IMG/VR virus record: IMGVR_UViG_2675903433_000022
Source: a virus
Taxonomy: Duplodnaviria; Heunggongvirae; Uroviricota; Caudoviricetes
Direction: 5' to 3' (one strand)
Length of the DNA: 64,000 nucleotides
Positions 611 to 63,960 of the stretch are shown here, one piece after another. The position numbers and the translations under genes were made by a program. The notes below the pieces were generated by a model, which did no database searches, was not told the DNA's origin, and worked only from the letters and a program-made list of their open reading frames with translations. The first letter of the stretch is position 1; each line of letters begins with the position of its first letter.

Positions 611-1118
611 ATAGCCACCAGCTGCCGCAGGGAAATTTTCAGAAACGGCGAGGAACGCATTCATGAGCCGACGGGAAACGGCCAGGATTTTTTCGGGAAA
701 CGGCTGCATTCGCCTTTGTGTAGAAAAAAACATCGGGAAGCTGGTGGAATCCAACCAGCGGTTGTCGGACAGGTGAGCGGGGAAAATTATGATGACTTTC
801 GTCGCCTGAGACATCCAGATTTCTTTCGTAGCGTAATCACATACGTGATTAAGTGGTGTGATTATGTGAAAAATCACGCGCACATAATACGCGAGCGGAT
901 ACGGAACAAAACAAAATGCCGATCCGCGCCGACAATTAAACGCGGACACATAGCAAGAATAAAAGCCAATGATTAACCATACACCATAACGCAATATAAC
1001 GCGATTTAAGCGCGTTAATGCGCTAAGTAATGGGTATGTACTGGTAAGGATATAAAAGCGCGTCTATGGCGTTATTTTGGCGCTTATTTTTATGTTGTTG
1101 GCTTGAGTCAAAGACAAT

Positions 1119-1142
1119 AAAAAAAGCGCCATCATTGGCGCG
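1119..1142 (-). terminator. terminator-like hairpin (second of tandem pair)
   Basis: GCGCCA-tcat-TGGCGC palindrome with A-run on plus strand (T-run on minus), downstream of minus-strand operon. Confidence 0.45.
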
Positions 1143-1164
1143 TTATGGTGGAAGTATTGGAAAC

Positions 1165-1189
1165 GAAAAAAGCGCCCATAGTGGGCGCT
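1165..1189 (-). terminator. rho-independent terminator of minus-strand operon
   Basis: AGCGCCCATAGTGGGCGCT hairpin; on minus strand followed by TTTTTTCGTTT, immediately after stop of ORF 1195..1425. Confidence 0.55.
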
Positions 1190-1194
1190 CGATT

Positions 1195-1444: not shown

Positions 1445-1648
1445 TTAAATAGAATTTTGAAGTTTTCCGATTAATGCGCTTAAACGTAAGTATTCACGTT
1501 TACGCTTGCAATCTCGCTTGTTGTTAAGCAAATCAGAAAACGTAAAATTTAATTGGTCGCGTTGCGCGATCAAATCATCGATTAATTCCAGTTTATAAGC
1601 GCGATACTTTGCGCGATATTCCGCGCGGATCTTGTCATAGCTGACCAT
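1445..1648 (-). CDS. hypothetical small basic protein (about 67 aa)
   Basis: ORF 1445..1693 trimmed to internal Met (MVSYDKI) preceded by AAAGGAG; the upstream part of the ORF overlaps a hairpin. Confidence 0.4.
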   Translation of the reverse strand: MVSYDKIRAEYRAKYRAYKLELIDDLIAQRDQLNFTFSDLLNNKRDCKRKREYLRLSALIGKLQNSI

Positions 1649-1666
1649 CTTTAAAGCTCCTTTAAA

Positions 1667-1685
1667 GCGCCCACTATGGGCGCTT
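1667..1685 (-). promoter_or_regulatory. intergenic hairpin, exact inverted copy of hairpin at 1171..1189
   Basis: AGCGCCCACTATGGGCGCT is the reverse complement of the 1171..1189 hairpin; sits between two minus-strand genes just upstream of an RBS. Confidence 0.4.
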
Positions 1686-1696
1686 GATTCCATTAA

Positions 1697-2347
1697 TTAC
1701 GCTTTGAAAGCATCAGCTAAATAATTGTAGAAATCATTTTTAATGAAGCGATATTGCTGAGTACCAGCTTTCGCACTCCCAGCTCCTTTGACTTTTTCAA
1801 CAAGTCCAAGACGTTCGCAAAGATTGATCAACTGGTTGGCTTGAGTATAGCCAGCGTCCAATTTAATTTCACACGCTTTTTTAGCTTCATTCATTAAATC
1901 GAAAACAGCGCCATTGGTGAACGTGTCGATCTCGTCGTTAATCATATCGATTAAAGCGAATACACGAGATCCAGACATATCAGCGATGGAATAAACGCAT
2001 TTACCAGATTTAATTGATTTAACCAGATAAACCAGTTTTTCCAGAGAATAACTATTAGTCATTGCATCACGGAAAAATACTTCTGGCGCTTGTTTGCTTG
2101 CTTTAATCGCATAGTAGAAAACAGAGCATAATTTTTCGTCTTCAACAGCGTTTACAACGTTGTTGATGAAGTAAGCAAGTTTAGTGGTCGCAGCTTGCAT
2201 ATTTGCTTTGTCTGCTTTAGTGTGCGTACCATTTTTATAATGTTCGTTATATGTTTGAGTTGCCAGATCTGCTTTTTCGCGCAGTTCATCGGATACAATG
2301 GAAGCAGCTTCAATGATGGATTTTTTAGAAATGATAATGTTAGCCAT
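1697..2347 (-). CDS. hypothetical protein (216 aa)
   Basis: Intact ORF; first gene of minus operon downstream of an AT-rich region at 2348..2580. Confidence 0.5.
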   Translation of the reverse strand: MANIIISKKSIIEAASIVSDELREKADLATQTYNEHYKNGTHTKADKANMQAATTKLAYFINNVVNAVEDEKLCSVFYYAIKASKQAPEVFFRDAMTNSYSLEKLVYLVKSIKSGKCVYSIADMSGSRVFALIDMINDEIDTFTNGAVFDLMNEAKKACEIKLDAGYTQANQLINLCERLGLVEKVKGAGSAKAGTQQYRFIKNDFYNYLADAFKA

Positions 2348-2585
2348 GATAATTTTTCCTTATGTAAATTTAAAATTTATTGTCGTTAGCGTCTTCGCTT
2401 TCGACGAGTTCAATTATCGATACACGAAAAAAGATTGCAAGTGTTTTTTTAAAATTTTTTGCAGGGATGAAAGTCCTAGAAATAAAAGCGAGATCGTCGA
2501 AGGTGTTCCCTAAATAAATAATCGATTCCGACTTTCGACCTTATATATATTTAGATTATTTGATTTATAGATATAAAGAAGTGAT

Positions 2586-2615
2586 GTGAAAAATAATAAC
2601 CGGACTTAGCCGGTT
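2586..2615 (-). terminator. rho-independent terminator
   Basis: AACCGGACTTAGCCGGTT hairpin with T-run on minus strand, just after stop of ORF 2631..2939. Confidence 0.5.
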
Positions 2616-2630
2616 ATTAACCTTATAGAT

Positions 2631-2939
2631 TTATTGAACAGACTCTACAGCCTTACGATTGGTGTCAAATAGCGCATCAACGAACTGTGCCGATGACTCG
2701 CTAGATTCGCAATCCAACATTGCCCGTTCTTCATTTGCCACTTTCTTACACAGTTCCACATTCTCACCTATCGCTTTTCCTGCTTTTACGGCTGCCGAAA
2801 ATTGATACATGCAAACTGATACATTCTGAGACGTTGAGCACACGTCATTCATCAGCGACTGAATGACAGGCTTATAGTCCATTGCATTTGCCGCAACTGA
2901 GCAAAGTAAAAATAATGGTGGTAACAATATCGATTTCAT
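2631..2939 (-). CDS. secreted cysteine-rich small protein (102 aa)
   Basis: N-terminal signal peptide MKSILLPPLFLLCSVAANA; six Cys in mature part. Confidence 0.5.
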   Translation of the reverse strand: MKSILLPPLFLLCSVAANAMDYKPVIQSLMNDVCSTSQNVSVCMYQFSAAVKAGKAIGENVELCKKVANEERAMLDCESSESSAQFVDALFDTNRKAVESVQ

Positions 2940-2942
2940 AAC

Positions 2943-3467
2943 TCAAAAAGGCAAAATTCGCTCAACCCAATCGAACAAAACAACTATTTTTCTACCGTTC
3001 TCGACACGTAGTGTAACCTGACAAGCATCTGCGCCTGCTGACACTCCCTCAATTTCACGGCCATCCGCCATGTACACCCTTATAGATTTGTTTGCTTTGT
3101 AGGCTTGGTTGCAAATTGCAAAAAAATCGCGGCGTGATGGCCGATTATCGACATAATCAGGGTGAACTGTTAGTCGACCTTTGAAATCGTGAGCGATACT
3201 GTCAACCACACCTGATTCAATTGTACTAATGCGTTCAAGTGGGAGCCTTATACGATTTTCTTTATCAAAAGGGGCTGGGCAAAGGTCAACTTTGTTACGA
3301 GATGGCATGAGGCCATAAACGTACATGCAAAACGCCTGGCCATCTTCGAGAGTGACCCTTACAGGAATTTGTTCTCTGCGCCAGAACATCAGTAGTTTTT
3401 CAACGTTAGTGTAATCTCGCGGCCAGAGTTCAGCTTGGATACCGTAGGTAATATCTTTGGTTGTCAT
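2943..3467 (-). CDS. hypothetical protein (about 175 aa)
   Basis: ORF 2943..3545 trimmed to internal Met (MTTKD) to avoid overlap with upstream gene; no motif recognised. Confidence 0.4.
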   Translation of the reverse strand: MTTKDITYGIQAELWPRDYTNVEKLLMFWRREQIPVRVTLEDGQAFCMYVYGLMPSRNKVDLCPAPFDKENRIRLPLERISTIESGVVDSIAHDFKGRLTVHPDYVDNRPSRRDFFAICNQAYKANKSIRVYMADGREIEGVSAGADACQVTLRVENGRKIVVLFDWVERILPF

Positions 3468-3471
3468 GTCA

Positions 3472-3936
3472 TCACAGAGTTGTTGGCAGAATGTCGATGT
3501 CACCAGAATTGCTGGTGAACACCCTGAACGCTTTTGTGTCTCCATTCTTCAGAGTCGTTTCTCGCTCTTGACGAGCGGGGTTTAGAGCACATAAACCTGC
3601 ACCTTCAAGAGATGCACCCACAATTAATTCTCCGGCATTTAAATGGAAAGTCGCTTTTTCGCCTGTAGCCAGTTTTGCGACAGTTTCGCCGTTGATGAAA
3701 ATGGAAGCATCACATCCAGCTCCTACAAAACCTGTGTCTCTCATTACCACCAACGTAGCTGGCGCTGCGCTTTGATACTTGAACACTTTGGCCTGCGGTG
3801 CTGGTTTGGCGTCATGGATTGATATTGGGCGTGATTGGCACGCGGTAAGCATCAACACTGGTAACGTTAGTAGAGGGAGAAGCGAGTATTTCATGATAGT
3901 TTTAGAACAGAAAGTGAACAGTATGGGAGACTTCAT
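3472..3936 (-). CDS. putative lipoprotein
   Basis: Lipobox LTAC after hydrophobic stretch LLPLLTLPVLML; AGGGAGA RBS before ATG at 3936; alternative start at 3894 (MKYSLL). Confidence 0.5.
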   Translation of the reverse strand: MKSPILFTFCSKTIMKYSLLPLLTLPVLMLTACQSRPISIHDAKPAPQAKVFKYQSAAPATLVVMRDTGFVGAGCDASIFINGETVAKLATGEKATFHLNAGELIVGASLEGAGLCALNPARQERETTLKNGDTKAFRVFTSNSGDIDILPTTL

Positions 3937-3962
3937 CTTTGTCTCCCTAATTGATAGCGTGA

Positions 3963-4241
3963 TTATTTTAATCTGCTTAATAGCGTTTCGAGATCTTCCT
4001 TTGTCATATTAGAGTTCTCATAGATACGCATGATTTTCTCACGAGTCTTAGCGGAAGCCCCGACAGAAGATATAACCTTGTCAAAGTCGGCCATTGTCAA
4101 TTGTTCCAGAATGGTATTTATGACTTCAGCCTTAGACATTTTGATATTTTTTTCTTTTAGTTTCACTTGAAACTTTCCAAGTTTGTCATTGGCCTTATCA
4201 GACAATGCTACCTGACAATAAGTTGTTTTCTTTTCACTCAT
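3963..4241 (-). CDS. small protein, possibly ribbon-helix-helix DNA binding (92 aa)
   Basis: Lys-rich small protein immediately downstream of and in operon with the helicase; RHH assignment is a guess from composition. Confidence 0.35.
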   Translation of the reverse strand: MSEKKTTYCQVALSDKANDKLGKFQVKLKEKNIKMSKAEVINTILEQLTMADFDKVISSVGASAKTREKIMRIYENSNMTKEDLETLLSRLK

Positions 4242-4243
4242 AA

Positions 4244-5803
4244 CTAATCTCGTTTCAGAACTCCAAAATCGAATGCTCCATCAATAGGCAATACACCTTC
4301 TGCAAAGCCAGGTGTGGTGTCGATGATGTGTTTTCGCTCATAAGAGTGAGACAACAGGTATTTGTTGCTAATGTCAATGAAATCAGTGATAAAACACACG
4401 TTTGCCTGATTTTTTTTGGCTCGTAAGCCACGACCGACACGCTGCCTCATTTCAACTTCTGCTTTCCCACCACCAGCAAGAATGACCGCACCAACGCTTG
4501 GCACATCAACACCGACATCCAGAATAGTCGAGCCTATTAAAACATCTATTTCTCCAGACGCTAAACTGTTCAGCTTTGCTTGCCTTGTCGCCTGGTTAGA
4601 TTCCCCATAGATGAAGTCAACTCTAAGGCCGGACTCTTTCATCATTTCCATCAGGATTTGCCCGTGGCGTTTAAGACGAACCAGAGTCATACAATTGAGA
4701 GAATGTTGCTTATAGAGCAATGCTTCGCGAACAATGGCCTCGTTACGTCCCAAATTATACACGATCCCCAACTGATAAGCCTTTTGGTAGGCGGTGCTCA
4801 TACCAACTCTAAAATTGAGGTGTTTGTTGGCAAGTTCGGCCTTGATTCTGGCCTCGTCTGGCTTGTAGGCAACTTTATGATAAAGGAAGTACGGCTTTGC
4901 CAGAATGCCTCGATCAATCAGGTACTTTTCTGTGACTTTAATTTCAATTCGCCCGGCCACCGCCATCAGGCGCATGTTGGCTTCCGTCGAATCCTTCATG
5001 AACGGCGTGGCTGTAAGCGCCAGACGATAGTCTGCGTTCACACATAATCTGGCGATGTCATAGAAATTTGAGCCTGAAGACTCATGCGCCTCTTCCAGAA
5101 TAAGAAGAGAGACACTTGAAAGGAAGCGTTTCACCAACTCCCGACGTTTGAGGTGGTAGCTTTTCTTATCTGGTGTTGCATCGCGTGGTGGTTCTTCGAG
5201 GAAACTTGCAAGAGTTTGAACTGTAGCGACGTTGATATGTCGTGATACCTGGAACTCACCCGAGCCAATGACTCCAACCTTTTGGTCTTTTAACCACGGT
5301 TCGCCATTTTCGGCGCGGTAGTCGATGGATCTCTGGAAGTTTTCGGCCATTTGAAACATCAGAACAGAGCGGGTTGTTAAAAATAATGTCATTCGACCGA
5401 TACGTGCAGCTGCTTTGCAGGCAACGTTAGATTTCCCGCCACCAGTAGCGATCTGCGCAATCATCATTCCCTCTCGAACCAGTGTTTCCACAGTCTGATC
5501 CTGATACGCATAATCAGGATTGTATGGGAATGGGTTAACCGCCGGATTTGGTTTACCAAGCGCCGGGGCTTTGTCTTTGCGGATATGAACACATTTGATG
5601 CCCGCCTTGTTCAAGTTCGCCGCTACAGGCTTGGCAAAGCCAGCAGGGAACGAGTTTTTACTCCAGTTGAACATCGTGCTTGTGCCCTTCCAGTCGCCAG
5701 TCTCGACTTCGTAGCTCAACATTTGCTGCACCAGTTGCTTTACCTTGTCATCTGCGCCAGAAATAAGCGCATTTACTGCGTTAGATACAATCCGAACAGT
5801 CAT
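4244..5803 (-). CDS. SF2 DEAH-like helicase (519 aa)
   Basis: Motif I ATGGGKS, motif II LILEEAHES, motif III LTATPF, motif VI QRVGRGLR. Confidence 0.8.
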   Translation of the reverse strand: MTVRIVSNAVNALISGADDKVKQLVQQMLSYEVETGDWKGTSTMFNWSKNSFPAGFAKPVAANLNKAGIKCVHIRKDKAPALGKPNPAVNPFPYNPDYAYQDQTVETLVREGMMIAQIATGGGKSNVACKAAARIGRMTLFLTTRSVLMFQMAENFQRSIDYRAENGEPWLKDQKVGVIGSGEFQVSRHINVATVQTLASFLEEPPRDATPDKKSYHLKRRELVKRFLSSVSLLILEEAHESSGSNFYDIARLCVNADYRLALTATPFMKDSTEANMRLMAVAGRIEIKVTEKYLIDRGILAKPYFLYHKVAYKPDEARIKAELANKHLNFRVGMSTAYQKAYQLGIVYNLGRNEAIVREALLYKQHSLNCMTLVRLKRHGQILMEMMKESGLRVDFIYGESNQATRQAKLNSLASGEIDVLIGSTILDVGVDVPSVGAVILAGGGKAEVEMRQRVGRGLRAKKNQANVCFITDFIDISNKYLLSHSYERKHIIDTTPGFAEGVLPIDGAFDFGVLKRD

Positions 5804-5848
5804 AAACCTCTTTCCTTAGTGCCTTTTGTATGTTATTTGGCTATTATA

Positions 5849-5868
5849 ATAAGTAAGTGATTACTTAG
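5849..5868. promoter_or_regulatory. palindromic motif site ATAAGTAAGTGATTACTTAG
   Basis: TAAGTAA / TTACTTA inverted arms in divergent region between helicase and ParB-like operon. Confidence 0.4.
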
Positions 5869-6566
5869 TGGATTGTAGCAATAAAATGGATGTAAAAATC
5901 ACGATTTTGCAGGTTGATGTTGCCAACCTTCGCCCGAATACCTGGAACACCAATTCGGTTGGTGCGCAGAATTTTGAAAAACTGAAAGGTTCTATCGAAA
6001 AATTGGGCTTTTTTAAGCCAATTTTGGCTCGTGAACTTGAAGATGGATTTTTTGAAATCCTCGGCGGCGAACATCGCTGGCGTGCTGCTATTGAGCAAGG
6101 AATTTCAACGGTTCCGGTGCTTTCTGTGGGCAAAATTAGCGATGTCGTAGCTAAACAGATGTCACTGGTGGACAACGAGCGATACGGTGAAGACGACCAA
6201 ATCGCATTGCAACGCTTCATTGAAGAAATTCAGTCAGAACTTGACTATCAACTGTCTGAAATCGCCCCGTATGACGACGAAATCTCGATGGTTTTAGCAA
6301 AAGAGGCGGCAATCGACCTTGAAGCACTGGAGGCGTTGTCTCGTGGTAGTGATGAGCCTGTCGATACCGACAAACGAGAGAAAACCGAACGTGTGGGGGC
6401 GGAACATCAGACCATGCGCTTCAAAGTAACTTTCGATGCGTCAGATCGTGTTGCAGAAACCATAAAAAACATCATCAAAGAGCAGGCTATTAACACCGGT
6501 AATGAAATGGAGAACGCTGGTGAGGCTCTGGTGTGGCTGGTCGACTACTACAAGGAGCGTATGTAA
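5868..6566 (+). CDS. ParB/Srx-like N-terminal domain protein
   Basis: ParB box GGEHRWRAA; acidic C-terminal half; true start may be ATG at 5886. Confidence 0.65.
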   Translation: MDCSNKMDVKITILQVDVANLRPNTWNTNSVGAQNFEKLKGSIEKLGFFKPILARELEDGFFEILGGEHRWRAAIEQGISTVPVLSVGKISDVVAKQMSLVDNERYGEDDQIALQRFIEEIQSELDYQLSEIAPYDDEISMVLAKEAAIDLEALEALSRGSDEPVDTDKREKTERVGAEHQTMRFKVTFDASDRVAETIKNIIKEQAINTGNEMENAGEALVWLVDYYKERM

Positions 6567-7234
6567 TGACCAAAAAGTTTGAAATCGTATATCGCGACCC
6601 GGCAGATCTTATTCCCTATGAGATGAATGCCAAAAAGCATGATGAACAGCAGATCCGAGATCTGGCCGCAGCCATTAAAAAGCGCGGATTTGACCAGCCA
6701 ATTACGGTCGATAAGAACGACGTAATTATTACTGGCCACGGCCGCCGTGAGGCTGCAATTTTTGCTGGACTTGAGCGCGTGCCGGTTATTGTTCGCGATG
6801 ATCTCAGTGATGACGAGGTTCGTGCGAAGCGCCTTGAAGATAACCGACTTGCCAGCATTGATTACGATGCAATTAAGCTACAGAAAGAGCTTGAGTCGCT
6901 TGTTCTGGACGATATCGAGGTTTTCGGCTTTGAAGAGCGTGAGTTGAATGTTCTCGTTGGCAGTATGACAGAAGAAATGGACACCGACTCGCTAGTTATC
7001 GATCTTGGCGAAGAAACTAAACGACAGAAGGATGAACACACCGAGATCAGTCGCGAAGTTGCAGCGGAAGAAGTACGTGTTGTCGACGTATTGGGCTTTA
7101 AAACGCTTCCTGCTGGCTCTGCCATTGTTGTTGGTGATTTGCTTGCCCACATGGAAGAAATGACGGGAGAGAGCGGGGTAGACGCATTTGTGGCATATGC
7201 GGAGAAGATCTCTTCCGGGGAGATGGCTGCATGA
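6566..7234 (+). CDS. ParB/Srx-like N-terminal domain protein (second copy)
   Basis: ParB box GHGRREAA; start overlaps previous stop (TAATG). Confidence 0.65.
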   Translation: MTKKFEIVYRDPADLIPYEMNAKKHDEQQIRDLAAAIKKRGFDQPITVDKNDVIITGHGRREAAIFAGLERVPVIVRDDLSDDEVRAKRLEDNRLASIDYDAIKLQKELESLVLDDIEVFGFEERELNVLVGSMTEEMDTDSLVIDLGEETKRQKDEHTEISREVAAEEVRVVDVLGFKTLPAGSAIVVGDLLAHMEEMTGESGVDAFVAYAEKISSGEMAA

Positions 7235-7896
7235 GCAAATACATCATCAACGTATCGTTTCAGACTCGCGTAAATAAAACCACGCGCACATTGGAAATCG
7301 CTGAGTCGTTCGGGCTTGGCCTGGACGAAAAAGAGTGGACGCTTTACGACAATCTGGAGCTGGAAGTGAAGCAGGGCGATGTGGTGTACATCACCGGCCA
7401 ATCCGGTTCCGGCAAATCCGTTGTGCTGCGCGAGTTGCAACGACAGATGAAGGATGAAGGGCTGTCTGTAGCCTCCATCGATGATTTTACCTTCGATAAT
7501 GAGGTTAACGTCATCGATCAGTTGGGCAAAACGACCAGTGATGCGCTTGGGTTGTTATCTATGGCTGGTCTGAACGATGCATATCTGTTTGTTCGCAAGC
7601 CTTCTGAAATGTCAGACGGCCAGAAATATCGTCTCAAGATTGCCAAACTGATTGAGTCAGGCGCTAAAGTGTGGGCTGCTGACGAGTTCGGCGCTGTTCT
7701 CGACCGTGTAACCGCTCAGGTTGTGGCGTCTAACCTCCAGCGTGCCGCTCGAAAGGTTGGTGCGACGGTAATGGTGGCGACGACTCACGAAGACCTGAAG
7801 AACGCGCTGCGCCCGGATATGCAGATCACCAAGCACTACAAAGAACGCGTGAAGGTGGAATATCACAATGGTAGTCATGATGAGGTCCATTCATGA
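7231..7896 (+). CDS. ABC-type ATPase domain protein (221 aa)
   Basis: Walker A GQSGSGKS, signature-like SDGQKYR, Walker B VWAADEFGA, H-loop TTHED; ATGA overlap with upstream gene. Confidence 0.6.
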   Translation: MSKYIINVSFQTRVNKTTRTLEIAESFGLGLDEKEWTLYDNLELEVKQGDVVYITGQSGSGKSVVLRELQRQMKDEGLSVASIDDFTFDNEVNVIDQLGKTTSDALGLLSMAGLNDAYLFVRKPSEMSDGQKYRLKIAKLIESGAKVWAADEFGAVLDRVTAQVVASNLQRAARKVGATVMVATTHEDLKNALRPDMQITKHYKERVKVEYHNGSHDEVHS

Positions 7897-8783
7897 CGGA
7901 CATCATCATTAAACGCTACCGCCCTGAAGAGTTTCCGCGTCATCTGGACTTTCTGGAGCGAATGACTGTTACAAAGGGAACTGTAGAGGACTGGCACGCT
8001 CTTAAGTCGCTTCACTACAAAACAGACGGCAAACCTTTCGCGCCAACTTACTATCGCTGCGAACTTGATGACCGTCTGGTGGGCGTCGTGGTTATGGCTT
8101 ACCCGAAACTACTGTTGGCACCTCGCCACCGCATGTTTCCTAAGTTGAAACCAACCACTAATACCACCGTGGCTAACCAGTACTGGGGTCGGTACGTGAA
8201 TAACAACTTTGCGGTGATCAGTCGCTCAGTTGTGGATACTCAGTATCGTGGCGTAGGCGTCTCTTATCGAATGATTAACCTGGTTAGCAGGATGCATGAC
8301 CGGCCAATCATTGAGATCCAGTCCTCGATGAGCAAATACAATCCCTTCGCCATGAAAGCAGGGTTTAAGTTCATCCGCCCTGAGCGACCGAAGAGCTATG
8401 AAAGTGCACTGCGTGTATTCCAGCGCCATTTCCGTTCCGACCCGGGTGATAACGAGGCGATCGTCAAAGAGTTGTTCGCAATGAGCGAGTCTCGTCGTCG
8501 CCGTGCACTGCGTGATCTGGTGGCGGACTACCACAAGAACAGTTCCCTGGCAAAAGCTGGGCGGAATCGTGGCACTACGATTCAGGACATTGCCGACAGT
8601 CTGGTGGACGAGGCCAGCATTGTGAAGCTGCTCAAGGACATTCACAACCTGAGCTTTACGTCTCCGTTGTATGGTGTGTACCGAAACCCTGACTTTGGCC
8701 GTCGACTGCCTGACACGCTGCCACTGCTGGCATTCGACAAACAACCTTTGGATAAACCGTTAGAAATTGCTTTACCGGCATAA
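7893..8783 (+). CDS. GNAT-fold acetyltransferase-like protein with C-terminal extension
   Basis: Motif resembling acetyl-CoA binding (VVDTQYRGVGVSYRM) and NPFAMKAGFKFI; ATGA overlap with upstream gene. Confidence 0.4.
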   Translation: MTDIIIKRYRPEEFPRHLDFLERMTVTKGTVEDWHALKSLHYKTDGKPFAPTYYRCELDDRLVGVVVMAYPKLLLAPRHRMFPKLKPTTNTTVANQYWGRYVNNNFAVISRSVVDTQYRGVGVSYRMINLVSRMHDRPIIEIQSSMSKYNPFAMKAGFKFIRPERPKSYESALRVFQRHFRSDPGDNEAIVKELFAMSESRRRRALRDLVADYHKNSSLAKAGRNRGTTIQDIADSLVDEASIVKLLKDIHNLSFTSPLYGVYRNPDFGRRLPDTLPLLAFDKQPLDKPLEIALPA

Positions 8784-49997: not shown

Positions 49998-50072
49998 GAT
50001 GGTGTAGCTCAGCGGTAGAGCAGTTGGCTGTTAACCAACTGGTCGGTGGTTCGAATCCACCCACCATCGCCA
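49998..50072 (+). tRNA. tRNA-Asn (anticodon GTT)
   Basis: Cloverleaf folded by hand: acceptor GATGGTG/CACCATC, D-stem GCTC/GAGC, anticodon loop CTGTTAA, T-loop GGTGG-TTCGAAT-CCACC, then G-CCA. Confidence 0.75.
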
Positions 50073-50074
50073 AT

Positions 50075-50150
50075 GCCGGTTTAGCTCAGTTGGTAGAGCA
50101 CCTGCCTTGTAAGCAGGATGTCAGCGGTTCGAGTCCGTTAACCGGCACCA
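50075..50150 (+). tRNA. tRNA-Thr (anticodon TGT)
   Basis: Acceptor GCCGGTT/AACCGGC, D-arm GCTC-AGTTGGTA-GAGC, anticodon loop CTTGTAA, T-arm AGCGG-TTCGAGT-CCGTT, A-CCA. Confidence 0.75.
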
Positions 50151-62746: not shown

Positions 62747-63634
62747 TCAGGCTGCCAGATCATTATTTCCGATGGAAGCATAATAAGCTTTTTCTGCTTC
62801 TGCCGGAGGAATATGGCCCAGCCTTTCCAGCAATCGTCGATTGTTATACCAGTCCACCCACGTTAGTGTGGCCAGTTCCACTTCTGTCCGGTTTTTCCAG
62901 CTCTTACGGTGTATTACCTCCGCTTTGTAAAGACCATTGATGCTCTCAGCCATCGCGTTGTCATACGAGTCGCCAGTACTCCCTGTTGATGCCAGTAATC
63001 CGGCTTCCTTAAGCCGCTGCGTGTAGGCCAGCGATACATACTGAGAACCTTTATCACTGTGATGGATTGTGCCGGACGGCCGACGGGCCCACAACGCCTG
63101 CTCCAGTGCATCCAGCACGAATGTTGTTTCCATGGATGATGAGACCTGCCATCCCACGATGTATCCGGCGAACACATCAATGATGAACGCCACATAAACG
63201 AAGCCCTGCCATGTGCTTACCCAGGTAAAATCAGCCACCCACAACTGGTCTGGACGTTCTGCCACGAACTGACGGTTTACGCGGTCGCATGCGGCAACGG
63301 CTTTCCGGCTGACGGTAGTGCGGACCTTTTTACCCCGGAGAACACCGGCAAGTCCCATAACTGCCATGAGACGTGCCACAGTGCATCTGGCCACTCTGAT
63401 ACCTTCCCGTAACAACTGACGCCAGACTTTACGCACACCGTATACCTGGTGATTTTCATCGTATACGCGCTGTATCTCTTTCTTCAGCCAGTCATCGTGC
63501 TGCGCACGGGCACTGCGTTTATCCGGATGATGTCGCTGTTGCTGACAATGGTAATACGTTGACGGGGCAATATGCAGTTCGCTGCATACCGGTCCGACCC
63601 CGTACTGCTCACGCAGCTTATCCAGCAGTGGCAT
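62747..63634 (-). CDS. IS3-family transposase OrfB (DDE integrase domain)
   Basis: 295-aa ORF with DDE-transposase-like segments (WVADFTW ... DKGSQY ... DNAMAES). Confidence 0.8.
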   Translation of the reverse strand: MPLLDKLREQYGVGPVCSELHIAPSTYYHCQQQRHHPDKRSARAQHDDWLKKEIQRVYDENHQVYGVRKVWRQLLREGIRVARCTVARLMAVMGLAGVLRGKKVRTTVSRKAVAACDRVNRQFVAERPDQLWVADFTWVSTWQGFVYVAFIIDVFAGYIVGWQVSSSMETTFVLDALEQALWARRPSGTIHHSDKGSQYVSLAYTQRLKEAGLLASTGSTGDSYDNAMAESINGLYKAEVIHRKSWKNRTEVELATLTWVDWYNNRRLLERLGHIPPAEAEKAYYASIGNNDLAA

Positions 63635-63960
63635 TATTTTTTCCAGAGGCGGTCGAACTCCGCCTTCGCAAAATAAGCGGAAGCCTGGCGAAGGATATCG
63701 TTACTGCGGCGCAGTTCACGATTTTCACGTTCCAGCTCTTTCAGACGCTGACGTTCAGCGGTGGTGAGTCCACCATCACCACTCCCGGTATCCCGCTCAT
63801 GCTGACGAACCCACACACGCAGAGTCTCTGGTGTACAGCCAATCTTTGGGGCAATGGAACAAATTGCCGCCCATTGTGAGTCATATTCGCCCTGACTTTC
63901 CAGAACCATACGAACTGCCCGTTGACGGACCTCGGGGGAAAAACGTGTATTTTTAGTCAT
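63634..63960 (-). CDS. IS3-family transposase OrfA (HTH)
   Basis: 108 aa with HTH and leucine-zipper-like C-terminus; overlaps orfB start as expected for -1 frameshift fusion. Confidence 0.8.

What the first reader, a model, noticed from the sequence alone, without database searches (positions are those of the whole stretch)
2631..5803. SF2 helicase operon continuing into small DNA-binding-like and envelope-targeted proteins
On the minus strand the DEAH-like helicase (519 aa, with a roughly 100-aa N-terminal extension) is followed with 2 to 26 bp spacing by a 92-aa Lys-rich protein, a lipoprotein (lipobox LTAC), a 175-aa protein and a secreted Cys-rich 102-aa protein, ending in a terminator at 2586..2615. 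A helicase co-transcribed with periplasmic or lipoprotein genes is unusual. The envelope proteins could be superinfection-exclusion or lysogenic-conversion morons, or the operon could be a helicase-based defence or anti-defence module.
Basis: partly seen in the sequence, partly recalled or inferred. Interest (0 to 1): 0.5.

Follow-up and report, generated by a model that had tools for sequence, protein, structure and literature searches.

The report
Phage-plasmid helicase, cargo genes, FljA-like regulator
This is not a helicase-based defence operon: it is a mosaic stretch of a common E. coli phage-plasmid in which a core replication-type helicase pair is followed by swappable envelope "cargo" genes and by a conserved, unstudied relative of the Salmonella protein that shuts off flagellin synthesis.

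Summary
Five co-directional minus-strand genes lie at 5803-2631 with 2, 26, 4 and 3 nt gaps, followed by a terminator at 2619-2586.

The window is an SSU5/pHCM2-type phage-plasmid. Comparison with 83 related loci and about 830 plasmids shows three layers rather than one functional operon.

1. **Core pair.** An XPB/UvsW-like SF2 helicase and a 92-aa protein are always adjacent. The arrangement is kept even in Acinetobacter relatives.
2. **Cargo hot spot.** The lipoprotein (at least 35 of 83 loci) and the secreted 4-Cys protein (21 of 83) come and go here. Lipoprotein homologues also sit in unrelated temperate phages, which is moron behaviour.
3. **The "175-aa protein".** It is an FljA-family protein (Pfam PF03614, 282 bits; 36% identical to Salmonella FljA, the translational repressor of fliC mRNA). 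It is present in 78 of 78 informative loci, is under purifying selection, and is predicted to be a tandem Hfq/Sm fold.

SSU5 has a terminator-like hairpin after the 92-aa gene. Where the FljA-like gene stands alone it has a TATAAT about 30-40 nt upstream. The tight five-gene packing is therefore lineage-specific.

A helicase defence module is not supported. The FljA-like gene is intact in 341 plasmids of Klebsiella, which lacks flagella by general knowledge, so its target may not be flagellin alone.

The parts
5804..5885 (.). Short divergent intergenic region between the helicase gene and the first parB-like gene. It presumably holds the promoter of the helicase unit.
   Evidence: Sequence read. 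An AAGAGG Shine-Dalgarno lies upstream of ATG 5803. The divergent parB/helicase arrangement is conserved in SSU5, Cyrano, Klebsiella, Yersinia and Acinetobacter elements. Promoter function is inferred, not shown.
4244..5803 (-). SF2 DNA helicase, 519 aa, XPB/UvsW/RecG-like, with a roughly 100-aa N-terminal extension. Core gene of the phage-plasmid.
   Evidence: Pfam ResIII 55 bits, DEAD 54 bits, Helicase_C 50 bits, all above cut-off. phrog_16 'DNA helicase', E 2e-93. PDB sequence hits: XPBII 2e-12, Rad25 1.5e-8, UvsW 5.5e-8. Motifs located. Homologues found in 1002 plasmids.
3963..4241 (-). 92-aa basic, predicted helical protein, 2 nt after the helicase gene. It is a constant partner of the helicase and its function is unknown.
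   Evidence: phrog_1466, unknown function, E 5e-46. Adjacent to the helicase in all 83 loci. A same-sized gene occupies the same position in an Acinetobacter phage-plasmid, with no detectable sequence similarity. The AF2 model is poor, pLDDT 58.
3937..3962 (-). 26-nt spacer that lacks the hairpin or terminator found after the 92-aa gene in relatives. It lies just downstream of a recombination breakpoint at about 3988.
   Evidence: Sequence. No terminator-like site here. Homology to Cyrano and PhiR41_1 ends at query position 1489, which is window 3988. Hairpins in relatives are shown.
3472..3936 (-). Lipoprotein (lipobox LTAC; Gln at +2, so probably outer membrane). Alternative start at 3894. 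Accessory cargo (moron).
   Evidence: phrog_890 'lipoprotein', E 1e-51. DUF2846 only 18 bits against a 34.3 cut-off. Variable presence and orientation. Homologues in 58 phage records from unrelated lineages.
2943..3467 (-). FljA-family protein, 174 aa, predicted tandem Hfq/Sm-like domains. No Shine-Dalgarno, and 4 nt after the lipoprotein stop, so translational coupling is likely. Present in every informative Enterobacterales SSU5-like locus examined.
2631..2939 (-). Secreted 102-aa protein with four invariant Cys. Accessory gene inserted between the FljA-like gene and its terminator. Function unknown.
   Evidence: phrog_9536, E 6e-55. Three divergent allelic types all sit directly after the FljA-like gene, with Cys34, Cys43, Cys64 and Cys77 invariant. 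No Pfam or PDB match. Found in only 2 phage records.
2586..2619 (-). Intrinsic-terminator-like hairpin plus T run that ends the unit.
   Evidence: 10-bp stem TAATAACCGG...CCGGTTATTA followed by TTTTT. The same hairpin directly follows the FljA-like gene in locus L043, which lacks the Cys-rich gene.

Best explanation
The region is a mosaic of three layers in an SSU5/pHCM2-type phage-plasmid, not one functional operon.

(1) Core pair. An XPB/UvsW-like SF2 helicase and its 92-aa partner are transcribed divergently from the parB-like partition genes. They most likely act on the element's own DNA in replication or recombination-dependent replication. This role is inferred.

(2) Cargo hot spot. Downstream lies a recombination hot spot where envelope-targeted genes are exchanged. 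In this window they are an outer-membrane-type lipoprotein and a small periplasmic 4-Cys protein. They most likely modify the lysogen's envelope, for example by superinfection exclusion. This role is also inferred.

(3) FljA-family gene. Embedded in the hot spot is a gene kept by all Enterobacterales members of the lineage. It encodes a tandem Hfq/Sm-fold protein homologous to the Salmonella repressor that binds fliC mRNA and blocks its translation. I propose that it works as a sequence-specific RNA-binding translational repressor. In flagellated hosts such as E. coli, Salmonella and Enterobacter it may silence host flagellin. Its conservation in Klebsiella elements indicates that it also, or instead, controls another mRNA, possibly one of the phage-plasmid's own.

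In this window's lineage a recombination inside the 3' end of the 92-aa gene removed the hairpin that follows that gene in relatives. Helicase transcripts can therefore probably read through into the cargo cassette. The FljA-like gene here has no Shine-Dalgarno and is probably translationally coupled to the lipoprotein gene.

Shown: gene content, homology, conservation pattern, selection, predicted fold. Inferred: transcription pattern, RNA binding, targets, roles of the helicase pair and of the cargo.
For: - Identity of the element: 98.7% identical to Escherichia phage CMS-2020a and 79% to SSU5.
- Layering: the helicase and the 92-aa gene are adjacent in all 83 loci. The FljA-like gene is present in 78 of 78 loci that extend far enough. 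The lipoprotein is in at least 35 loci and the Cys-rich protein in 21. The space between the 92-aa gene and the next core gene ranges from 947 to 4804 bp and holds different genes on either strand.
- Deep conservation of the pair: Acinetobacter phage-plasmids keep parB, helicase and a 92-aa gene in the same order and lack the FljA-like gene.
- Separate transcription units in relatives: SSU5 has an 11-bp-stem terminator-like hairpin after the 92-aa gene. Other relatives have hairpins there, and a TATAAT about 30-40 nt upstream of a stand-alone FljA-like gene. Antisense genes intervene in the Klebsiella and Cyrano types.
- The window has only a 26-nt spacer with no hairpin, and a homology breakpoint at about 3988.
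- FljA membership: Pfam 282 bits; colinear alignment with Salmonella FljA sharing the motifs DI(T/S)YG..AE.WPRDY, PSxRDFF.IC and FDWV.RI.
- Selection: median dN/dS 0.11.
- FljA proteins block fliC mRNA translation, and a plasmid-borne FljA renders motile E. coli non-motile (PMC2652032).
- Lipoprotein as a moron: homologues in lambdoid, Pseudomonas and Vibrio temperate phages. GC is lower here, 0.41 against 0.47-0.49 for most of the window.
Against: - No expression data exist. A weak promoter-like match at 3991-3962 (9 of 12) could make the cassette independent of the helicase promoter even in this window.
- The helicase's role in replication or recombination is inferred from family resemblance only.
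- Flagellin as target is weakened by several points. 341 of the 831 plasmids carrying the gene are from Klebsiella, a genus without flagella by general knowledge. The gene is full-length in 822 of the 831 records. Within the Klebsiella-type clade the ratio of synonymous to non-synonymous polymorphic codons is 19:8, like the E. coli type at 26:9.
- From my own knowledge, S. Typhi CT18 carries pHCM2 yet is typed H:d. This was not tested here.
- Identity to characterised FljA is only 36%, so specificity may differ.
- No similarity to the fliC leader exists in the window, so a self-target of that kind is not evident in these 64 kb either.
- No function could be assigned to the 92-aa protein or the 4-Cys protein.
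Confidence: 0.72

Rival explanations
1. Flagellin-silencing conversion module. The conserved FljA-like protein's main job is to repress translation of the host's fliC mRNA in lysogens. This makes them poorly flagellated or non-flagellated, which would save energy, resist flagellotropic phages and evade TLR5. The neighbouring lipoprotein and periplasmic protein would further remodel the envelope.
For: - It is a bona fide member of a very small family, 26 clusters at 50% identity among 1.84 billion proteins.
- The characterised members I know of (Salmonella FljA, FljA z66; PMC2652032) repress fliC.
- The z66 plasmid-borne FljA acts across species and renders E. coli non-motile.
- The family is restricted to Enterobacterales elements and is absent from the Acinetobacter relatives, although the neighbouring helicase pair is kept there. 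Acinetobacter is a non-flagellate host by general knowledge.
- Annotators of SSU5 and pHCM2 already labelled it a putative repressor of phase-1 flagellin or of fliC.
Against: - It is intact and under unrelaxed purifying selection in Klebsiella-specific elements.
- It is retained in Y. pestis pMT.
- No partner flagellin gene accompanies it, unlike canonical hin-fljB-fljA.
- Carriers such as S. Typhi CT18 (pHCM2) are typed as flagellate (own knowledge, not tested).
- 36% identity leaves target specificity open.
Confidence: 0.3
2. Phage-intrinsic regulator. The FljA-like tandem-Sm protein is a translational repressor of the phage-plasmid's own mRNAs, for example in the lysis/lysogeny, replication or partition control circuits. 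Salmonella FljA would then be a domesticated offshoot of this phage family.
For: - It is present in every informative locus across all Enterobacterales SSU5-like elements whatever the host's flagellar status.
- Purifying selection persists in the Klebsiella clade.
- It holds a fixed position beside the replication/partition-proximal core genes.
- Diversity within the phage-plasmid clades (down to 33-39% identity) exceeds their distance to canonical FljA. Canonical FljA groups beside the main SSU5 clade in a midpoint-rooted NJ tree.
- Among 50,697 phage records it occurs only in SSU5-like phages.
Against: - No candidate target RNA was found. No fliC-leader-like sequence exists in the window, though only 64 kb of about 110 kb was available.
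- Acinetobacter relatives do without it.
- The NJ tree placement may be a long-branch artefact.
Confidence: 0.4
3. One reading: the five genes form one helicase-based defence or anti-defence operon.
For: - Tight spacing and a single terminator in the window.
- The helicase gives partial hits to the PADLOC PbeA models, best E 6.6e-23.
- Some relatives carry large unknown proteins in the same hot spot: 385 aa in L070 and 607 aa in L072.
Against: - The PbeA hits cover only the generic SF2 core, and no other protein of the locus hits any defence model.
- The helicase is invariant and core, while the downstream genes are swapped.
- A terminator-like hairpin or antisense genes separate them in relatives.
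- The helicase sits with the partition genes in all relatives, including Acinetobacter.
Confidence: 0.04

Closest known systems
Salmonella enterica FljA (phase-1 flagellin repressor; Pfam PF03614 Flag1_repress)
   Same: Full-length colinear homologue of about the same size (174 against 179 aa). 36% identity, E 1e-25, Pfam score 282 bits, shared conserved motifs. The predicted tandem Sm/Hfq fold fits the known mRNA-binding, translation-blocking mechanism of FljA (PMC2652032).
   Different: It is not linked to a second flagellin gene or an invertase, whereas canonical loci are hin-fljB-fljA. It is present in every informative locus of a phage-plasmid lineage. It also occurs in Klebsiella and Y. 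pestis elements. Its target is untested.
Salmonella phage SSU5 / S. Typhi pHCM2 / Y. pestis pMT1 family of phage-plasmids (SSU5 super-community)
   Same: Same synteny: parB-like genes, then divergently the helicase, the 92-aa gene, optional cargo, the FljA-like gene and the phrog_1513 gene. The window is 79% identical to SSU5 in DNA and 98.7% to Escherichia phage CMS-2020a.
   Different: The window's lineage adds the 4-Cys gene and lacks the terminator-like hairpin that SSU5 has after the 92-aa gene.
Phage T4 UvsW and archaeal/bacterial XPB (SF2 DNA helicases/translocases)
   Same: SF2 core with motifs I, II (EEAH), III and VI. Sequence hits to XPBII (2e-12), Rad25/XPB (1.5e-8) and UvsW 2OCA (5.5e-8). 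Like uvsW it is followed by a small ORF; the T4 uvsW.1 precedent is from my own knowledge.
   Different: Similarity is confined to the helicase core. The N-terminal 100 aa were not matched to anything. The 92-aa partner could not be related to UvsW.1 or to any fold.
Phage morons, for example the lipoprotein genes of lambdoid phages (Bor, Cor) and the mEp390 lipoprotein gp17
   Same: Small envelope-targeted genes, variably present, lower GC than most of the window, dispersed among unrelated temperate phages, located between conserved genes.
   Different: An own promoter is not demonstrated here. There is no sequence relation to Bor, Cor or Llp. The function was not tested.
Hfq / Sm-like RNA chaperones
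   Different: Two Sm units are fused in one chain. Sequence identity is 13-21%. Ring assembly and RNA-binding faces are unknown. The Hfq Pfam score of 19.1 is below its cut-off of 27.

Membership tests
FljA / Flag1_repress (PF03614) | Sequence match to the family profile above the curated threshold | tested here: met
   281.7 bits against a cut-off of 24, covering profile positions 1-170 of 170. phrog_1444, E 2e-100.
FljA / Flag1_repress (PF03614) | Full-length colinear homology to experimentally characterised Salmonella FljA | tested here: met
   P0082 'phase 1 flagellin gene repressor FljA': 36% identity, query residues 1-172 against 4-173, E 1.2e-25. Alignment A2.
FljA / Flag1_repress (PF03614) | Encoded downstream of, and co-transcribed with, an alternative flagellin gene (fljB), usually with an invertase | tested here: not met
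   No flagellin or invertase gene lies in the locus or in the relatives. The canonical context hin-fljB-fljA is seen in L087.
FljA / Flag1_repress (PF03614) | Binds the fliC mRNA leader and blocks translation of phase-1 flagellin | not testable with these tools
   This needs motility and FliC assays plus RNA-binding experiments. Indirect evidence against exclusivity: 341 carrier plasmids are in Klebsiella.
Sm/Hfq-like fold | N-terminal helix followed by five bent beta-strands forming a small barrel | tested here: met
SF2 helicase (XPB/UvsW-like) | Helicase motifs I, II, III and VI, and two RecA-like domains recognised by the family profiles | tested here: met
   GGGKS at 121, EEAH at 237, TATP at 264, QRVGRGLR at 454. 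ResIII, DEAD and Helicase_C are above their cut-offs. PDB sequence hits to XPB and UvsW.
T4 UvsW + UvsW.1 pair | The small downstream partner is homologous or structurally similar to UvsW.1 | tested here: inconclusive
   No PDB sequence hit. The AF2 model is poor at pLDDT 58. Foldseek against PDB gave nothing with E below 1.
Bacterial lipoprotein | Signal peptide ending in a lipobox [LVI][ASTVI][GAS]C | tested here: met
   MKYSLLPLLTLPVLMLTA|C, read from the sequence. phrog_890 'lipoprotein', E 1e-51. No SignalP or LipoP was available.
DUF2846 (PF11008) | Score above the Pfam gathering threshold | tested here: not met
   17.8-18.1 bits against a cut-off of 34.3.
Moron (accessory gene in a temperate phage) | Present or absent between otherwise syntenic relatives, and found in unrelated phages | tested here: met
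   Lipoprotein in at least 35 of 83 loci, Cys-rich protein in 21 of 83. Lipoprotein family in 58 phage records from Escherichia, Pseudomonas and Vibrio phages, and between the tail genes of mEp390.
Moron (accessory gene in a temperate phage) | Own promoter and terminator allowing expression from the prophage | tested here: inconclusive
   A terminator is present at 2619-2586. Only a weak 9/12 promoter-like match lies at 3991-3962. There are no transcript data.
Known anti-phage defence systems (PADLOC-DB) | Full complement of system components matching the defence models | tested here: not met
   Only the helicase gives partial PbeA and other SF2 hits. The other five proteins give none, or E above 0.005.
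Ribbon-helix-helix DNA-binding proteins (for the 92-aa protein) | Profile match or strand-helix-helix fold | tested here: inconclusive
   No Pfam hit. The monomer AF2 model shows helices 15-30 and 37-47 after an unstructured N-terminus. The RHH-like pattern TYCQVAL...SKAEVINTILEQL is only my reading.

The most novel reading that the evidence does not exclude
All Enterobacterales SSU5/pHCM2/pMT1-type phage-plasmids, about 830 sequenced plasmids including those of S. Typhi, Y. pestis, Klebsiella and E. coli clinical clones, carry a conserved tandem-Sm RNA-binding repressor. It would be the ancestral form of Salmonella FljA. It would reprogram translation of specific host mRNAs (flagellin in motile hosts, something else in Klebsiella) or act as the element's own post-transcriptional lysogeny or maintenance switch. 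On that reading, flagellar phase variation's FljA is a domesticated phage-plasmid regulator.
Probability: 0.3. Interest if true: 0.65.

Novelty: new member of a known kind. Interest (0 to 1): 0.4.

Why it matters

What deserves attention is the conserved FljA-like gene. These phage-plasmids are common in clinical E. coli, Klebsiella, Salmonella (pHCM2) and Y. pestis (pMT1). Here the gene was found in 831 of 72,556 plasmid records, and the cassette DNA matched plasmids in 207 of 5,426 complete E. coli genomes.

If the protein silences flagellin, carriage would alter motility, H-antigen expression, TLR5 recognition and susceptibility to flagellotropic phages. If it regulates the element itself, it would be a new kind of post-transcriptional control in phage-plasmids, and it would suggest a phage origin for the repressor used in Salmonella phase variation. 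Both ideas can be tested directly with simple genetics.

Seven full-text searches, five of them aimed at this link, found no paper that addresses this gene on these elements.

Tried and rejected
- **92-aa protein as a UvsW.1 analogue or RHH repressor.** There was no PDB sequence hit and no Pfam hit even at E up to 10. The AF2 model was poor, pLDDT 58. Foldseek against PDB gave nothing below E 4. hhalign against the same-position 92-aa protein of an Acinetobacter element was not significant. Left as unknown.
- **4-Cys protein as a known family** (I had LprI/DUF1311-type lysozyme inhibitors in mind). No Pfam hit for three allelic types and no PDB profile hit. Rejected for lack of evidence.
- **Lipoprotein against solved structures.** Nothing.
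- **A fliC-leader-like self-target in the window.** blastn-short of the K-12 fliC leader plus start gave only chance-level matches.
- **P0081 (46% identical) as the z66/E. coli FljA.** It is just another divergent phage-plasmid-type member, closest to Klebsiella elements.
- **Defence-system membership.** Only generic SF2 hits.
- **BFVD fold search of the FljA-like model.** Only single-domain Sm-like hits with low full-length TM, so no other phage lineage with the tandem protein was found. tblastn agrees, with 14 records, the 12 full-length ones all SSU5-like.
- **Literature.** No paper links SSU5, pHCM2 or phage-plasmids with fljA. Prophage papers that mention fljA refer to the chromosomal fljAB-hin locus.
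- **Rfam.** No known RNA family in or near the region.

Full report
**1. What is there**

The window is an SSU5/pHCM2-type phage-plasmid of E. coli. Bases 2500-6000 are 98.7% identical to Escherichia phage CMS-2020a and 79% identical to Salmonella phage SSU5. The rest of the window carries a long run of plus-strand ORFs, two tRNAs and an IS-type frameshift element.

Five genes lie on the minus strand:
- a 519-aa helicase, 5803-4244
- a 92-aa Lys-rich protein, 4241-3963
- a lipoprotein, 3936-3472, with lipobox LTAC (family members start at the internal ATG 3894)
- a 174-aa protein, 3467-2943
- a secreted 102-aa protein with four Cys in its mature part, 2939-2631

The gaps are 2, 26, 4 and 3 nt. 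A 10-bp-stem hairpin plus T run at 2619-2586 ends the series. No terminator-like site lies between the five genes in the window, and only weak 9/12 promoter-like matches occur, one of them at 3991-3962.

**2. What the proteins are**

*Helicase.* It has SF2 motifs I, II (EEAH), III and VI. It passes Pfam ResIII, DEAD and Helicase_C from residue 99 onward. It belongs to phrog_16 'DNA helicase'. By sequence it resembles XPB (E 2e-12), Rad25 and T4 UvsW (5.5e-8) among solved structures.

*92-aa protein.* It belongs to phrog_1466, of unknown function. It has no Pfam, NCBIfam or PDB match. Its AF2 model is of low confidence (pLDDT 58, five helices), so the fold search was uninformative.

*Lipoprotein.* It belongs to phrog_890 (E 1e-51). 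Its hit to DUF2846 is below threshold.

It matches Pfam PF03614 'repressor of phase-1 flagellin' over the whole profile at 281.7 bits against a cut-off of 24.

*Cys-rich protein.* It belongs to phrog_9536 and has no other match.

**3. Conservation: three layers, not one operon**

I collected 80 IMG/VR loci around helicase homologues (70-100% identity) and added SSU5, Cyrano and PhiR41_1. I then located the window's proteins in them by tblastn.

- The helicase and the 92-aa gene are adjacent in all 83 loci.
- The FljA-like gene is present, on the same strand and before the next core gene (phrog_1513, window 2347-1697), in all 78 loci that extend far enough. The five exceptions are contigs that end within 1.8 kb of the 92-aa gene.
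- The lipoprotein is detected in at least 35 loci and the Cys-rich protein in 21.
- The distance between the 92-aa gene and phrog_1513 varies from 947 to 4804 bp.

ORF inspection of 22 architectures shows that the variable space holds different genes on either strand. Among them are DUF2846-like lipoproteins in both orientations, a 266-aa membrane lipoprotein, secreted proteins of about 118 and 197 aa, cytoplasmic proteins of 180-200 aa, and occasional large proteins (385 and 607 aa). In the simplest form (L043) the FljA-like gene follows the 92-aa gene by 110 nt with nothing else between them.

The same synteny is seen in K. pneumoniae pPMK1-B and in Y. pestis pMT.

Helicase homologues occur in 1002 plasmids, including 153 from Acinetobacter and 12 from Aeromonas. 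An Acinetobacter element keeps the order parB-like genes, helicase, 92-aa gene and then changes strand, with no FljA-like gene. The helicase pair is therefore the deep core. The FljA-like gene is a core gene of the Enterobacterales branch. The envelope genes are cargo.

**4. Transcription signals in relatives**

SSU5 has an 11-bp-stem, T-tailed hairpin right after the 92-aa gene. Other lineages have hairpins at the same place.

Where the FljA-like gene stands alone or follows an antisense gene, a TATAAT lies about 30-40 nt upstream of its start, in a conserved leader.

The window type has only 26 nt and no hairpin. Its homology to the Cyrano and PhiR41_1 type breaks at about 3988, inside the 3' end of the 92-aa gene. 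That gene is accordingly 86-88% identical where the helicase is 99-100% identical.

The terminator at 2619-2586 is the same hairpin that directly follows the FljA-like gene in L043. The Cys-rich gene therefore sits between the FljA-like gene and its own terminator.

The five-gene 'operon' is thus a lineage-specific fusion.

**5. The FljA-like protein**

An exhaustive HMMER search of 1.84 billion cluster representatives found only 26 clusters with E up to 0.001, so the family is tiny. One of them, P0082, is named 'phase 1 flagellin gene repressor FljA [Salmonella enterica]'. It is 36% identical over the full length with E 1.2e-25. The alignment is colinear with shared motifs.

tblastn finds the protein in 831 plasmids, 822 of them full-length and 793 non-mobilizable. 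The host counts are Klebsiella 341, Escherichia 229, Enterobacter 92, Yersinia 62 and Salmonella 60. The cassette DNA matches plasmids of 207 of 5,426 complete E. coli genomes and is never chromosomal there. Among 50,697 phage records the protein occurs in 14, and the 12 full-length matches are all SSU5-like phages.

The median pairwise dN/dS is 0.11.

**6. What does it act on?**

Several points favour host flagellin as the target:
- Homology to a family whose characterised members I know of repress fliC.
- Cross-species activity of a plasmid-borne FljA in E. coli.
- Restriction of the family to Enterobacterales.
- Absence from the Acinetobacter relatives.

Several points argue against flagellin being the only or main target:
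- The largest carrier group is Klebsiella, which lacks flagella by general knowledge, and Y. pestis pMT also keeps the gene.
- The Klebsiella-type clade is host-specific. The phage records at 79% identity to the window protein are all Klebsiella phages.
- That clade shows 19 synonymous-only against 8 amino-acid-changing polymorphic codons. This is the same pattern as the window type (26:9) and the SSU5 type (71:31), so selection is not relaxed there.
- No flagellin gene accompanies it, unlike canonical hin-fljB-fljA.
- From my own knowledge, S. Typhi CT18 carries pHCM2 and is typed H:d.

I found no sequence in the window that resembles the K-12 fliC leader, so a self-target of that type is not evident either.

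A midpoint-rooted NJ tree places canonical FljA beside the main SSU5 clade, with a second phage-plasmid clade (L079/L082 type) further out. This fits a phage-plasmid origin of FljA but could be a long-branch effect.

I therefore commit to the biochemical mechanism, an RNA-binding translational repressor, at about 0.7. I split the target question as follows: phage-plasmid or other non-flagellin mRNAs about 0.4, host fliC as the main target about 0.3, and the remainder unknown.

**7. The cargo genes**

Lipoprotein homologues (27-46% identity) occur in 58 phage records. They include lambdoid mEp390, where the gene sits between tail genes, Pseudomonas aeruginosa temperate phages and Vibrio anguillarum phages.

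The 4-Cys protein is found in only two phage records. Even so, three divergent allelic types with the same four invariant Cys all sit directly after the FljA-like gene, including in the distant L082 type. Its function is unknown.

GC is lower here than in most of the window: 0.41 at 2001-4000 against 0.47-0.49 over 6-34 kb.

**8. Defence hypothesis**

PADLOC gives only SF2-core hits to PbeA and other helicase-containing models. It gives nothing for the other proteins. Together with the core status of the helicase and its fixed place beside the partition genes, this leaves no support for a helicase-based defence module.

**9. Novelty and verdict**

The locus belongs to a known, well-populated family. 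The SSU5 and pHCM2 annotators had already labelled the gene a putative repressor of phase-1 flagellin or of fliC. As framed, the finding is an ordinary mosaic of core and cargo genes.

The features worth following up are these:
- the family-wide conservation of an orphan FljA homologue
- its predicted tandem Hfq-like fold
- its persistence in Klebsiella elements
- its constant pairing with a small 4-Cys periplasmic protein

The full-text searches I ran found no study of any of them.

Overall interest is 0.4. Novelty is 'new member of a known kind'. There is a 0.3 chance of the more interesting reading, that a phage-plasmid post-transcriptional regulator is ancestral to FljA.

Noticed in passing
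window 5868-8783 (+): Two tandem ParB_N-domain proteins, an ABC-type ATPase and a 296-aa protein are transcribed divergently from the helicase. The arrangement (two parB-like genes, then an ABC ATPase) is conserved in SSU5, Cyrano, Y. pestis pMT and even an Acinetobacter phage-plasmid. This is an unusual partition-like module with no ParA-type Walker ATPase hit at the top of the list.
   Followed up: partly
window 2631-2939; L082 offsets 645-953; L010 offsets 2457-2756 after the 92-aa gene: Three very divergent allelic types (22-26% identity) of a secreted protein of about 100 aa share four invariant Cys (C-x8-C ... C-x12-C in the window). All sit immediately downstream of the FljA-like gene. 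This recurrent pairing is unexplained.
   Followed up: partly
L072 offsets 2119-3942 and L070 offsets 598-1755 after the 92-aa gene: In some relatives the same hot spot carries large unknown proteins (607 aa and 385 aa). They could be defence-type cargo and were not analysed.
   Followed up: no
L089 6797-7075 (Acinetobacter baumannii plasmid NZ_CP027608.1): The gene after the helicase in Acinetobacter phage-plasmids also encodes exactly 92 aa and has a strand-helix-helix-like N-terminal pattern (KPFTVTQEASEIIARFAEKYPTLTQGDIVSVL). hhalign finds no significant similarity to the window's 92-aa protein. It may be an analogous partner that has diverged beyond recognition.
   Followed up: partly
window 1445-1693 (-): This 82-aa protein matches phrog_6145, labelled 'MIT family metal ion transporter' and carried over into the SSU5 RefSeq annotation. 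A protein this small with no hydrophobic segments cannot be such a transporter, so the label looks like a propagated misannotation.
   Followed up: no
window 1060-1190: A cluster of strong terminator-like hairpins on both strands (for example GAGCGCCCAC...GGGCGCTT at 1190-1170 and GCGCCA...GGCGC at 1141-1126) lies in a stretch of roughly 600 nt with no convincing ORF. It could be a convergent terminator region or a small RNA locus. Rfam found nothing there.
   Followed up: partly
window 49998-50147 and 63563-63679: Two adjacent tRNA genes lie at about 50 kb. An ALIL pseudoknot (an IS3-family frameshift element, 120 bits) lies at 63.6 kb inside a minus-strand ORF, which indicates an IS insertion near the end of the window.
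   Followed up: no
P0074 (E. coli chromosome, 5.2 Mb contig): A single chromosomal E. coli copy of the FljA-like protein (52% identity) has patchy, degenerate-looking segments in the alignment. It may be a decaying integrated copy.
   Followed up: no
NJ tree of FljA-family proteins: Canonical Salmonella FljA is closer to the main SSU5 clade (33-37% identity) than to a second phage-plasmid clade (26-27%). The two phage-plasmid clades are 35-39% identical to each other. This hints that chromosomal FljA derives from a phage-plasmid gene.
   Followed up: partly
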